A stretch of 64,000 nucleotides of DNA from Phoronis australis (lineage: Eukaryota; Animalia; Phoronida): contig NMRA01000767.1 of NCBI GenBank assembly GCA_002633005.1, positions 62,001 to 126,000 of the forward strand, in the 5' to 3' direction. Shown piece by piece: positions 45,501 to 48,500 of the stretch. The translations under genes were made by a program, and so were the position numbers. Numbering within the stretch: position 1 is the first letter of the stretch; each line of letters opens with the position of its first letter. A model generated the notes under the pieces. That model worked only from the letters and a program-made list of their open reading frames with translations, was not told where the DNA came from and searched no databases.

Positions 45501-48500
45501 TGACGTAGGTGGTGGCCATGTGTATATCCATCAGATTGTTTAGACTGATTTGGTCTTGAGTCAGTCTTAGTGCTAGAGTGTCTGTGGTTAGATGAACATA
45601 GCAATGTGTTGTATTGTCTTGATACTTGTATTGTGTATTGGTGGAACAGTGGGCAGGGAGTCAACTGGGGCTGGGCTCCATCGTGAGAGGTGTCGATTTG
45701 ATGTACGGTTTGTTCACAAGGGATCATGTGATCAAGGAAATTCTGAGAATGTGACATCATTGGAAAATGGAATCGCGGCATTGGAAGGCATGTTTCGGGG
45801 GCTTTTGAAAACTGTATATGAAAAGGGCTTTGAGAATGGGCAGTTGGAGTCGAGAGTGACGGCGTTAGAAAAAACTGTTCAGAATATAACAAACTCAATT
45901 GAGAATGAACATGTGAGTCTCAGAGGAAAACTTGATGATTTGGAGCACAGTGTGAACGAGTCAGAAATGTTGGTGAGAGGTGCTGAGGAGTCACTTAGTA
46001 AGATGTTGTTGCAAAATAAACATCTTCTTGAGGAACTTAAGACCGCTCAGCAGGACACATTGTCTCGGGATACCGATTTAGAAATTGCGCGAGAAAGTTT
46101 GAGTGCAGCGAAAGAAGAAATGAACAGATGTGTCAATGAACTGGCTTTGTCGAAAGAAAACCAGGTTCAAAAGGATTGCCCAACGGATTTGAAGTTACAG
46201 TGGGCTTTTGGGAAAATATGTAAGTACGATTAATTTAATTTTACTAAAAAGCTGTTTCTTCTCTCATAGATTTTTTAAATTAAATTTGACAAGATTAATG
46301 TGTTTTCATTTTCCAAAGGATTGTAGTACTGAAGATGTGAATATCTACATTAAATTCTCAAAGTATGTATGGTGATAACAATGATATGGAACTTCAGATT
46401 TATTAAGAATTTATTTCGTAATATTTATCTTTCAAGAAAAAAAATATCTAAATATGATTTAATTTGGTTTTTACTTCCTTCCTGTTTTATCTTTTGTGGA
46501 TTTTTAAAATTGTTTTGAACTGAATAACTAGAAATAATCTCCCCAATTTTAGACAAAAATATTTGACAACATTGATGTTTATTGTGAATACTTACAGGTT
46601 CTTAAAATATGTCACATGGTAGCAATTATATAGAACTTAAAATTGTAACAAAAATTATTTGATGCTACTTATCTTTTAATAAAAAATCAGAAAATAAAAT
46701 TTATTTTTTCCGCCAGAGCTGAATGATGTTCATTTACATTACAAAAACATTTAACAACATATTTATTGTAAAACGTTTTGAGATCATCGTGAAACCTTTG
46801 ATTATCGATGGGCAATTTCATTGAACGTTTTTAATTGTTAGAGTTCTTTTTTGCTTTCAGGGTATGCCAAGTCGTGTCAGGACTGGTTTGAAATGAGTGC
46901 AACTGAAAATGGAGAGTACCAGGTCGATCCAGATGGCCCTGGAATGGGACTAGACCCCTTTGATGTCTACTGTGACTTTCATGCCAGGAACAACACGGCT
47001 ATCGCCACCATCTTCCACCATAATGTTGAGAAACGGACCAAGGTCGAGCCTGAGTGTGAAGTGAGAAAGTGCTATAAGAAGGAGATAAGTTACCGTCAGG
47101 ACATACGTCAGATAGCGGCAGCCATGAAACTGACTGCTGTGTGCGAACAGTTCATTAAATACGAGTGTTATAGCTCGCAACTGTTGCTGTCATATCCTGA
47201 CACAGCGCTGGCGGCATGGTACTCTCGTGACGGTGACGAGATGTTGTATTGGGGCGGAGCTAGTCAGGGTAGCAACATGTGTGGGTGTGGCACAACAGGA
47301 ACATGTGATGTAGACACGTCATGGGCGACGGGCAGGTGTAACTGTGATAATAATGACAAGGTGTGGAGAGAGGACTCGGGCTACCTGACAGACAAGTGTA
47401 CCCTGCCCGTCACCAAGTTGGCCTTTGGAGATGCGTCATCCGGGGAAGAGGGTTTCCACACTCTGGGTCCTTTAGTGTGTTATAACTATAACTACCGAAA
47501 TGAACCTGAATAAAGAGGAGATGGCGTGTACGTGGTCGGTGGTGAATCTCAAGTGTCATACGGTGATAGTGATTTAAAATTGTTATGAATGCACCTAATG
47601 CCAATAAACAAAACTTTATTGCTTTGCTTAAGGCTGCTACATACTGATGTTGATCGGTTAACTTCGGTCCTGGATCAAAGTTAATAGCTCCAGTTAACTT
47701 TGCAGTAAACAGGTGGATGTAATAGCGGAACATCGACGCTTCGGTACATTATGAATGGTCAAGTTCGGTCTCATTAATGTTATCGCCAGTGGCCAATGCT
47801 ATTGTCAACAGTGTTGTCACTACTATGTGCAAATATTTTGCTTAAATAATCACCAATCGAATTAGAAATAAGTTTTATGTTACTTATCTTCCGTAAATGT
47901 TCTCAAACTGCCACATTAAAAAAATCTTAGCATGAAAGGGATGCATCAGCGCCATCTTGTGATTACTTCGATGAGGACAGCTACACCCACTGTTTTCTTC
48001 GATGCTGTTAACTACCAAAGCTAGTATGAGCAGTTCAATTAACTTTGCAGTTTAGGTTGACAATCTGCTCATACCGGAGCTCAGTTAGTACGAAAGGGCT
48101 ATCATTTACCTGTGTAAAGTTGACATAAAGTTGTTCGTTGCTGGTGTTCTATGTTAGTTCTGGGCTTGGAAAGAGCAGACAGATCGTTGTTGCTTGGTAA
48201 CAAGTTCAACCAGTTGGCTTGTCATGGCAGGTCATTGTTGCTTGGTAACAGGTTCAACCAGTTGGCTTGTCATGGCAGGTCCTATAATATGCGTAACATT
48301 GGTCAGGAGCAGTAATGAACTATAAGTTTTTCTTAAGCCAGGGAAAAGAAGTTGAGTTGAGTTTTGTTTCTGTAATGGATTTAAATCAACAATTTTGTTG
48401 ACAGAATGCGTTTTTCTACACGTAACAACTGTAATTGGTTTCATTTATTGTATGATAGATCAGTAATTGAGTTATAAAAAGAATACTGCTTATACTATGT

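What the first reader, a model, noticed from the sequence alone, without database searches (positions are those of the whole stretch)
45592..47608. Intact same-strand nested gene: secreted coiled coil plus Caspr-type fibrinogen-like domain inside Cav1
Seen: two phase-compatible exons, no stops, 426 aa, in the 8.3-kb intron 41550-49821, with no gap between it and the downstream Cav1 exons. Known: this fibrinogen-like subtype is normally an internal module of membrane-bound Caspr/neurexin IV. Signal peptide + coiled coil + fibrinogen domain is the angiopoietin/FReD layout. Nested genes are more often antisense. Inference: a domain-shuffled, probably oligomeric secreted protein (immune, adhesive, matrix or synaptic), possibly co-regulated with or interfering with Cav1.
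Basis: partly seen in the sequence, partly recalled or inferred. Interest (0 to 1): 0.8.

Follow-up and report, generated by a model that had tools for sequence, protein, structure and literature searches.

The report
Collagen-tail-fold trimer nested in calcium channel
Inside one intron of an invertebrate's L-type calcium-channel gene, on the same strand, lies a second gene with its own spliced RNA, coding for a likely secreted protein with a predicted three-stranded stalk and a head predicted to fold like the tail of procollagen; it is an ordinary member of a widespread, little-studied animal family that databases auto-name after Caspr/neurexin-4.

Summary
A two-exon, 426-aa gene lies in the 8,272-bp Cav1 intron 41550-49821. 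RNA reads splice both its intron (6 reads) and the Cav1 intron across the gap (37 reads), on the same strand. Its transcript extends beyond the finding, from about 45448 to about 49011.

The interpretation needs correcting. The head is homologous to Caspr's so-called fibrinogen-like domain, but its model matches the procollagen C-propeptide (COLFI; Z 15.3, TM 0.59) far better than fibrinogen domains (Z at most 5.0, TM about 0.3). The module is not mainly Caspr's: it has 1,614 relatives, only 3 of 30 long ones scanned carry LamG, and 14 of 79 short ones share the signal peptide + coiled coil layout (amphioxus, tunicates). It falls outside the Caspr clade. A trimer motif and a modelled homotrimer (0.56 vs control 0.01) suggest a three-headed secreted binding protein. 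Its RNA varies about 20-fold across three runs while Cav1 varies about 2-fold, and no chimeric joints were listed, so tight co-regulation is not supported. The scan noted this family before, in a sea urchin (e1-9185256). A real gene of a database-known, uncharacterised family; interest is modest.

The parts
41443..41549 (+). Cav1 exon (II-III linker) upstream of the host intron
   Evidence: Acceptor AG at 41441-2; donor confirmed by 37 joint reads
41550..49821 (+). Host Cav1 intron, 8,272 bp, GT..AG, phase 2; holds the N gap 45252-45384 and the nested gene
45448..45591 (+). 5' leader of the nested transcript (at least 144 nt; start site not mapped), with three upstream ATGs opening 19-, 4- and 13-codon frames
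   Evidence: X4 contig begins at 45448 at depth 59.9 and X5 contig at 45583; uATGs
45592..46219 (+). Nested exon 1, coding part: residues 1-209 plus one base (phase 1)
   Evidence: RNA depth
45592..45654 (+). Likely signal peptide (about residues 1-21); cleavage site inferred, no SignalP available
   Evidence: Best 15-residue hydropathy 3.24 at residue 3; no 19-residue window above 1.2 starting after residue 9
45691..45729 (+). Cys34-beta strand-Cys46 segment before the coil; possible higher-order clustering element
   Evidence: Strand 33-41 in the model; similar pattern in 3 of 13 relatives checked; Atlas lead Noelin-1 at 0.79, a lead only
45739..46161 (+). Coiled-coil stalk, residues about 50-190
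   Evidence: 3.5-residue hydrophobic period, reached by 0 of 5,000 shuffles; helices 51-78 and 84-190; modelled parallel trimer
45853..45870 (+). R-h-x-x-h-E trimerization motif, residues 88-93, in register (V89 at a, L92 at d)
   Evidence: best-resolved contacts of the trimer model, including 93 with 88; motif definition in PMC3653964
46220..46860 (+). Nested gene's single intron, 641 bp, GT..AG, phase 1
   Evidence: Joint reads X7 2, X8 4; X4 contig
46861..47513 (+). Nested exon 2, coding part: COLFI-fold head (residues 211 to about 417), short tail and stop codon
   Evidence: AF2 pLDDT 93.5; 5k31 Z 15.3, 181 aligned, rmsd 3.9; Foldseek E 2e-9, TMq 0.59
47514..49011 (+). 3' UTR of about 1.5 kb; AATAAA at 47603 is read through, distal AATAAA at 49001-49006
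   Evidence: X5 contig 47107-49011 and X8 depth 13-20 on the sense strand up to about 48920; signals
49822..49892 (+). Next Cav1 exon, about 810 bp after the nested poly(A) signal
   Evidence: Joints 41549>49822 and 49892>50280
50280..50449 (+). Following Cav1 exon (end of the II-III linker)
   Evidence: Joint reads 6, 12, 18; 64.5% to a bivalve L-type channel; open frame through the three exons

Best explanation
The Cav1 intron holds a second gene with its own spliced RNA, likely transcribed from its own promoter as a passenger, whose product is likely secreted, is predicted to zip into a three-stranded coiled coil, and would thereby display three heads predicted to fold like the procollagen C-propeptide, likely binding a repeated extracellular ligand (glycan, matrix or cell-surface protein) by avidity, as collectins and ficolins do. 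Shown: gene structure, splicing, strand, nesting, UTR extent, uneven expression relative to Cav1, and homology to a large family. Predicted: signal peptide, COLFI fold, trimer, and a calcium loop in the head. Inferred: the avidity-binding role. Whether the ligand is microbial (immune) or host matrix is not resolved. Cav1 splicing skips the whole gene, and either cross-splice would hit a stop within 9-13 codons.
For: Splicing and nesting. Nested depth per Gb read is 0.51, 0.42 and 8.64 in X6, X7 and X8, against 1.59, 1.65 and 4.02 for the Cav1 exon bins; Cav1 joints per Gb are 5.4, 6.1 and 10.6. COLFI fold. In the solved C-propeptide the same fold sits on a three-stranded coiled-coil stalk with one Ca2+ per chain (PMC5353611 section 5). 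The trimer motif is in register, and is present in 12 of 26 coiled-coil relatives vs 3 of 53 others and 3.3% of shuffles. 14 of 79 short relatives carry Gly-X-Y stretches, which need three chains (established knowledge), before the same head; 10 of these also have a coil. Trimer model: score 0.56, best of 3 controls 0.01, runs agree in at least 89% of contacts, pLDDT at least 72. This mark was reached by 21 of 30 solved pairs and 0 of 23 single chains in microbes, and by 17 of 29 (animals 7 of 16) and 0 of 30 in eukaryotes; the calibration used two copies, not three. Purifying selection on the head among the listed alleles: 2 replacement vs 7 silent changes, odds 0.075, p 0.0005. Partner domains in relatives are extracellular recognition modules. 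Cross-splice stops.
Against: No ligand is known or tested. Only three copies were modelled, so a dimer or tetramer was not compared, and long coiled coils may score well from memory. The trimer motif arises in 10.6% of shuffles of exon 1 and also occurs in some dimers (PMC3653964). The head lacks collagen's inter-chain cysteines and Arg42. The N-terminal Cys segment resembles olfactomedin-1, whose coil is dimeric. Both genes peak in the same run (X8), so some shared expression is possible. Only three runs of unknown tissue were laid, with 18-19% of each read. The allele list is truncated (40 of 81 rows shown), and the stalk shows 9 replacement vs 4 silent changes (p 0.49, not distinguishable from neutral).
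Confidence: 0.6

Rival explanations
1. An olfactomedin/angiopoietin-like ligand: a dimeric coil, clustered into tetramers or higher by the Cys34/Cys46 segment, which cross-links a specific cell-surface receptor.
For: Layout of Cys segment, coil and C-terminal head; Atlas first hit Noelin-1 at 0.79 (below the level that counts); Olfm1 is a disulfide-linked tetramer of dimeric coils (PMC6857237 passages); weak PF25443 ANG-1-like hit at E 0.05, below its cut-off.
Against: In-register trimer motif and trimer model; the head is COLFI-fold, not FBG or beta-propeller; collagen-stalked relatives imply three chains.
Confidence: 0.15
2. A free C-propeptide mimic that joins or modulates fibrillar collagen assembly, or binds its processing factors, in the matrix.
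For: The best structural match over nearly the whole head is the procollagen I/III C-propeptide, including PCPE-1-bound forms; acidic residues line the loop that holds calcium in collagen.
Against: Only 18% identity; Arg42 and Cys47/Cys64 of the collagen base are absent; the same head occurs in tandem repeats and inside membrane proteins, so it does not need the collagen context.
Confidence: 0.08
3. A functional partner of Cav1: co-transcribed or co-regulated, and secreted at synapses or muscle to organise channel sites.
For: Same strand; both genes are highest in X8; in Drosophila, same-strand intron-bearing nested genes are rarer inside essential hosts (PMC3814207), so survival here could mean benefit.
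Against: The nested/Cav1 ratio is 0.32, 0.25 and 2.15; the gene has its own leader and poly(A) signal; nested/host pairs are usually less co-expressed than neighbours (PMC3814207 passages; PMC5174743 abstract).
Confidence: 0.07
4. The locus matters through interference: nested exon 2 and its poly(A) site act as an alternative last exon that truncates Cav1 after domain II.
For: Same strand, with a strong polypyrimidine acceptor at 46860 and a poly(A) signal inside the host intron; a 41549>46861 splice would end the channel 9 codons later.
Against: No such joint reached the 3-read listing threshold, against 37 normal joints in three runs.
Confidence: 0.05
5. A fragment or pseudogene of a normal Caspr/neurexin IV, or an assembly artefact.
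For: 35.5% identity to a Caspr domain; an N gap lies 63 bp upstream of the first transcribed base seen; query as sister to all Casprs is not rejected (p-AU 0.24).
Against: A full-length hemichordate Caspr hits only exon 2 in the window; own ATG, hydrophobic leader, stop and UTRs; spliced RNA; silent-biased alleles in the head; the Caspr clade excludes it (91/90); nesting inside Caspr subgroups is rejected; RNA joins the Cav1 exons on both sides of the gap.
Confidence: 0.02

Closest known systems
Amphioxus and tunicate 'neurexin-4-like' / 'contactin-associated protein-like' short proteins (e.g. XP_066272301.1 = P0034, XP_066268704.1 = P0035, XP_066286834.1 = P0044, XP_076809182.1 = P0122)
   Same: Signal peptide + coiled coil + the same C-terminal head; P0034 has 49% identity in the head; several carry the R-h-x-x-h-E motif, and P0035 and P0051 carry the N-terminal Cys-strand-Cys pattern. 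P0034's 90% cluster spans three Branchiostoma species.
   Different: The stalk is longer here (about 140 residues) and not alignable (best E 0.26). Orthology is not shown: the query has no well-supported sister. Their names are automatic, and I found no paper on their function.
Fibrillar procollagen C-propeptide (COLFI, PF01410; PDB 5k31, 4ae2)
   Same: Fold over 181 residues (Z 15.3); coiled-coil stalk before the head; base cysteine pair; acidic loop where collagen binds Ca2+.
   Different: No triple helix; about 25 linker residues between coil and head; no inter-chain Cys47-Cys64 and no Arg42; below Pfam's detection for this sequence.
Caspr / neurexin IV internal 'fibrinogen-like' domain
   Same: Clear homologue (35.5% over 211 aa; best single-domain score 124.5 bits); same cysteine pattern.
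   Different: No discoidin, LamG, EGF, membrane segment or tail; lies outside the Caspr clade; 112 of 149 other fetched domains (a set chosen for high score) score above the best Caspr.
Angiopoietins / FReDs (PF00147), ficolins and collectins
   Same: Works-like resemblance: a secreted oligomeric stalk that clusters globular heads. The first 50 or so positions of the head are shared with FBG domains.
   Different: The rest of the head is not FBG (TMq 0.26-0.34, Z at most 5.0); no known FBG sugar or receptor pocket can be transferred.
Same-strand nested genes (Drosophila surveys)
   Same: Short gene with one intron inside a long intron of a conserved host, expressed unevenly relative to it.
   Different: A minority class: in Drosophila 71% of nested genes are on the opposite strand, and 72.5% of same-strand ones have no intron (PMC3814207).

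Membership tests
Caspr / neurexin IV | Internal 'fibrinogen-like' domain | tested here: met
   35.5% over 211 aa to P0170, E 3e-28
Caspr / neurexin IV | Discoidin, LamG and EGF domains in the same protein | tested here: not met
   No such Pfam hit on either exon; full-length Caspr P0170 hits only exon 2 in the 64-kb window
Caspr / neurexin IV | C-terminal membrane segment and cytoplasmic tail | tested here: not met
   Stop 10 residues after the last Cys; no hydrophobic window after the leader; 3' UTR is transcribed
Caspr / neurexin IV | Domain branches within the Caspr clade | tested here: not met
   15 Casprs form one side at 91/90 without the query; inside the deuterostome or protostome subgroup rejected, p-AU 0.0155, 0.0171, 0.0245; sister to all Casprs not rejected, 0.239. 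No vertebrate, mollusc or annelid Caspr was sampled.
FReD / angiopoietin | Full-length fibrinogen C-terminal domain (PF00147) | tested here: not met
   No hit at E up to 0.5; the family profile matches FBG chains mostly up to about position 115 of 282; Foldseek TMq 0.26-0.34 vs 0.59 for COLFI
FReD / angiopoietin | Signal peptide + coiled coil + C-terminal globular head | tested here: met
FReD / angiopoietin | Binding of acetylated sugars or of a Tie-type receptor | not testable with these tools
   Needs a binding assay
COLFI-fold (C-propeptide-like) proteins | C-propeptide fold over the whole head | tested here: met
   5k31 Z 15.3, 181 aligned, rmsd 3.9; next hit Z 6.7; all listed Foldseek hits with E under 1e-3 (17 counted) are C-propeptide chains; Atlas clusters with PF01410 in 15-44% of members at 0.95-0.96
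COLFI-fold (C-propeptide-like) proteins | Pfam PF01410 cut-off | tested here: not met
   No hit for the query; some relatives pass it, e.g. P0047 at 38.7 and P0100 at 48.7 bits vs 26.2
COLFI-fold (C-propeptide-like) proteins | Ca2+ loop of the base | tested here: inconclusive
   D232, D234 and D241 line up by eye with collagen D59, N61 and D67 (5k31 stretch; D67 is named as a ligand, D59 and N61 are recalled). D232 and D234 are kept in 41 and 45 of 71 rows; D241 is not among the common letters of its column.
Fibrillar collagen | Gly-X-Y triple helix | tested here: not met
   None in exon 1
Fibrillar collagen | Inter-chain Cys47-Cys64 and Arg42 | tested here: not met
   Q216 and M221, and no Cys in the loop
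Trimeric stalk-and-head binding proteins (collectin/ficolin-like in mode) | Homotrimer through the stalk | tested here: inconclusive
   The model supports it (0.56 vs best control 0.01) and the motif is in register, but other stoichiometries were not modelled
Nested protein-coding gene | Whole transcript inside one spliced intron of a host gene | tested here: met
   45448-49011 lies within 41550-49821; both introns are spliced in RNA

The most novel reading that the evidence does not exclude
This gene is one of a large, undescribed class of soluble trimers that are collectin/ficolin counterparts built on the procollagen C-propeptide fold: a coiled-coil or short collagen stalk carrying three COLFI-fold heads, used across marine invertebrates as pattern-recognition or matrix-bridging proteins. 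The 'fibrinogen-like' domain of Caspr would be the same ligand-binding module, so these small soluble proteins would be the easy route to its unknown ligand.
Probability: 0.3. Interest if true: 0.55.

Novelty: new member of a known kind. Interest (0 to 1): 0.3.

Why it matters
As a single locus it matters little: nested genes are common, and this layout is already in RefSeq for amphioxus and tunicates under automatic Caspr/neurexin-4 names. Two points are useful. First, the domain is a procollagen C-propeptide fold rather than a fibrinogen fold, which changes what one would guess about it, Caspr's copy included. Second, a small, soluble, expressed and probably trimeric carrier of that domain is a handy reagent for finding what it binds. 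A same-strand, intron-bearing gene with a poly(A) site inside a calcium-channel gene is also a natural test of how such hosts avoid mis-splicing.

Tried and rejected
No whole genome is held, so paralogues, the animal's own Caspr and synteny could not be tested. Single-sequence Pfam and PDB searches with the head found nothing useful; a profile and a fold search were needed. The word-index search of longer proteins gave only 3 hits among 331 candidates. No listed holder run is on record as RNA, which is no evidence either way. Run X4, guessed as DNA, behaves as RNA: it has the spliced joint and exon depth 44-93 against about 0-5 in most flanking bins, while X1 is even at 5-9 over the exons with no joint, so I rejected a processed retrocopy. 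X5 shows no contig on the three Cav1 exon bins, but a hole in contigs proves nothing, so I did not count it. DNA contigs reach 75 and 185 letters into the gap without bridging it. Antisense reads at about 44030 are a short repeat match with loose ends on both sides, not a divergent transcript. The lineage was not resolved: one Cav1 exon is 90% like a bivalve, but summed exons score about equally to arthropods and a priapulid. A clade of the query with amphioxus coiled-coil members is neither shown nor rejected (p-AU 0.146). The sequence look-up among earlier findings was empty. Ten paper searches listed no paper on this protein family, on Caspr's domain as a C-propeptide fold, or on a gene nested in Cav1. 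I saw listings and abstract starts only, and the library lacks most subscription papers. PMC12549020 and PMC12414531 (passages) added nothing beyond Caspr's textbook domain list.
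Full report
Observation. Exon 1 (45592-46219) and exon 2 (46861-47513) join in phase 1 across a GT..AG intron to give 426 aa without a stop, and both ORFs are longer than the longest ORF in any of 300 shuffles of the intron. The host intron is 41550-49821. Tblastn with L-type channels finds exons from about 27 kb to 63.5 kb on the + strand. Two of three exons tested against PDB score best on L-type chains; the third scores best on Cav2 chains, although its named database hits are L-type/Cav1-type. 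No whole genome is held.

RNA evidence. Three raw-read RNA runs under the same species label (18-19% of each read) join 41549 to 49822 in 10, 10 and 17 reads, and 46219 to 46861 in 0, 2 and 4 reads. First mates lie on the same strand for both joints. The host joint spans the N gap, and there is no gap from the nested gene to the downstream exon, so the nesting is real unless the 800 bp between 49011 and 49822 is misassembled. The transcript is longer than the finding: an X4 contig starts at 45448, and depth continues past the AATAAA at 47603 to a contig end at 49011, right after AATAAA at 49001. The leader has three upstream ATGs. Per Gb read, nested depth is 0.51, 0.42 and 8.64, while the Cav1 exon bins give 1.59, 1.65 and 4.02 and the Cav1 joints 5.4, 6.1 and 10.6. 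Both peak in X8, but the ratio moves about 8-fold, which fits an own promoter better than a shared one (inference from three samples of unknown tissue). No joint between host and nested exons was listed (threshold 3 reads), and either cross-splice would stop within 9 or 13 codons. Of the 22 coding alleles I could read from truncated tables, the head has 2 replacement and 7 silent changes (odds 0.075, p 0.0005) and exon 1 has 9 and 4 (p 0.49). The head is under purifying selection; the stalk is looser.

What the head is. Pfam and a single-sequence PDB search are blank. A 71-row profile hits procollagen C-propeptides first, and fibrinogen-type chains mostly over the profile's first 115 positions. 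The AlphaFold model (pLDDT 93.5) matches the procollagen I C-propeptide at Z 15.3 over 181 residues with rmsd 3.9; the next hit is Z 6.7, Angptl3 5.0 and FGL1 4.5. Foldseek agrees: TMq 0.59 against 0.26-0.34 for FBG chains. The Atlas's nearest clusters carry COLFI in 15-44% of members (its recognition value is below the mark, so this is weak). The head is therefore a COLFI-fold domain that shares only its first subdomain with fibrinogen. It is homologous to Caspr's 'fibrinogen-like' domain (35.5%), so that name probably misleads for Caspr too (inference; I did not fold a Caspr domain). I recall that Gene3D already puts both in one superfamily; that comes from no call. In collagen the head sits on a three-stranded coiled-coil stalk, binds one Ca2+ per chain, and is locked by Cys47-Cys64 and Arg42 (PMC5353611, section 5 read). 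The query keeps the base cysteine pair and an acidic loop but lacks the inter-chain cysteines and Arg42. COLFI domains without collagen are already noted in choanoflagellates (PMC3308698, passages).

How common the layout is. HMMER finds 1,614 cluster representatives at E up to 0.001; the best 150 were listed. In 99 of 151 fetched relatives a copy of the domain ends within 15 residues of the C-terminus. Of 30 longer hits scanned, 3 carry LamG; most others carry Xlink/CUB/SRCR, C-type lectin, Sushi, MAM, Ig or C1q, and some no other family. Of 79 short hits (picked by hand from the 150 for length and a mostly single domain), 26 have a coiled coil by my heptad score (18 of 1,580 shuffles pass it), 14 have a hydrophobic leader plus coil, and 14 have Gly-X-Y stretches. 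Named examples are amphioxus and Clavelina proteins auto-called neurexin-4-like or contactin-associated protein-like; one 90% cluster spans three Branchiostoma species. In a 68-row tree the 15 Caspr/neurexin IV domains form one side (91/90) without the query, which has no supported sister. On a 29-row subset, placing the query inside the deuterostome or protostome Casprs is rejected (p-AU 0.016-0.025); placing it as sister to all of them is not (0.24). No vertebrate, mollusc or annelid Caspr was sampled.

The stalk. Residues 1-21 are the only hydrophobic stretch. Residues about 50-190 have a 3.5-residue period (0 of 5,000 shuffles reach it) and fold as long helices. Residues 88-93 form the R-h-x-x-h-E trimer motif in the right register (definition and caveat in PMC3653964, passages). 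It is in 12 of 26 coiled-coil relatives against 3 of 53 others, but chance gives it in 10.6% of shuffles of the query. Three copies of residues 28-200 fold as a parallel trimer: score 0.56, best of 3 controls 0.01, runs agreeing in at least 89% of contacts, pLDDT at least 72, with the best-resolved contacts at the motif. This mark was reached by 21 of 30 solved pairs and 0 of 23 single chains in microbes, and by 17 of 29 (animals 7 of 16) and 0 of 30 in eukaryotes; the calibration held two copies, and a pass may come from memory. Dimers and tetramers were not modelled. A Cys34-strand-Cys46 segment before the coil recurs in 3 of 13 relatives checked and drew Noelin-1 as a sub-threshold Atlas lead. 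In olfactomedin-1 such cysteines link dimeric coils into tetramers (PMC6857237, passages), which keeps the dimer-of-dimers rival alive.

Mechanism. Most likely (0.6) this is a passenger gene with its own promoter, making a secreted three-headed protein that binds a repeated extracellular ligand by avidity, in the manner of collectins and ficolins but with a C-propeptide-fold head. Gene structure, splicing, strand and nesting are shown. Secretion, fold and trimer are predicted. The binding role is inferred from the architecture and from the domains this module keeps company with. Immune versus matrix use is open. Rivals: receptor ligand with a dimeric coil (0.15), collagen-assembly modulator (0.08), Cav1 partner (0.07), Cav1 truncation switch (0.05), Caspr fragment or artefact (0.02).

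Nesting in context. In Drosophila nearly 10% of genes are in nested structures, 71% of nested genes are on the opposite strand, 72.5% of same-strand ones lack introns, and nested/host pairs are less co-expressed than neighbours (PMC3814207, passages; PMC5174743, abstract). A same-strand gene with one intron inside a conserved channel gene is thus a minority case but a known one.

Novelty and verdict. This is a new member of a family that is known in databases, mis-named, and, as far as ten searches of the held library show (listings only), not described functionally. The scan noted a sea-urchin member before with the same fold reading (e1-9185256); I saw that note after my own fold searches, and it is not independent support. 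Interest 0.3.

Noticed in passing
window 35065-35310 and 35599-35842: Two arrays of an 88-bp unit that copies the acceptor and the start of the Cav1 IIS4-S5 exon, with degenerate copies; decoy splice sites or local exon-edge duplications.
   Followed up: no
window 39700-40119 and 63514-63601: Tandem repeats (82-bp and 43-bp units) that overlap the ends of Cav1 exons and appear to include their donor sites.
   Followed up: no
window 42075-42512 (- strand): 145-codon stop-free frame resembling the zinc-binding tail of a decayed LINE reverse transcriptase (resemblance recalled, not tested); reads from many other copies pile up here.
   Followed up: no
window 47488: One-base deletion in 4 of 12 X8 reads (2 starts), after the head's last cysteine; it would change only the short C-terminal tail.
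   Followed up: partly
run X4: Listed as 'DNA?' but shows the spliced joint and exon-enriched depth, so it is probably an RNA library.
   Followed up: partly
proteins P0083, P0113, P0123, P0133, P0139 and others: Relatives built as short collagen stretch + neck coil + the same head, most with a hydrophobic leader: a collectin-like layout with a COLFI-fold head, at least in tunicates (P0139).
   Followed up: partly
proteins P0046, P0060, P0080: Relatives (P0046 is from amphioxus) with an internal hydrophobic segment before the coil, suggesting type II membrane-anchored versions of the same stalk-and-head protein.
   Followed up: no
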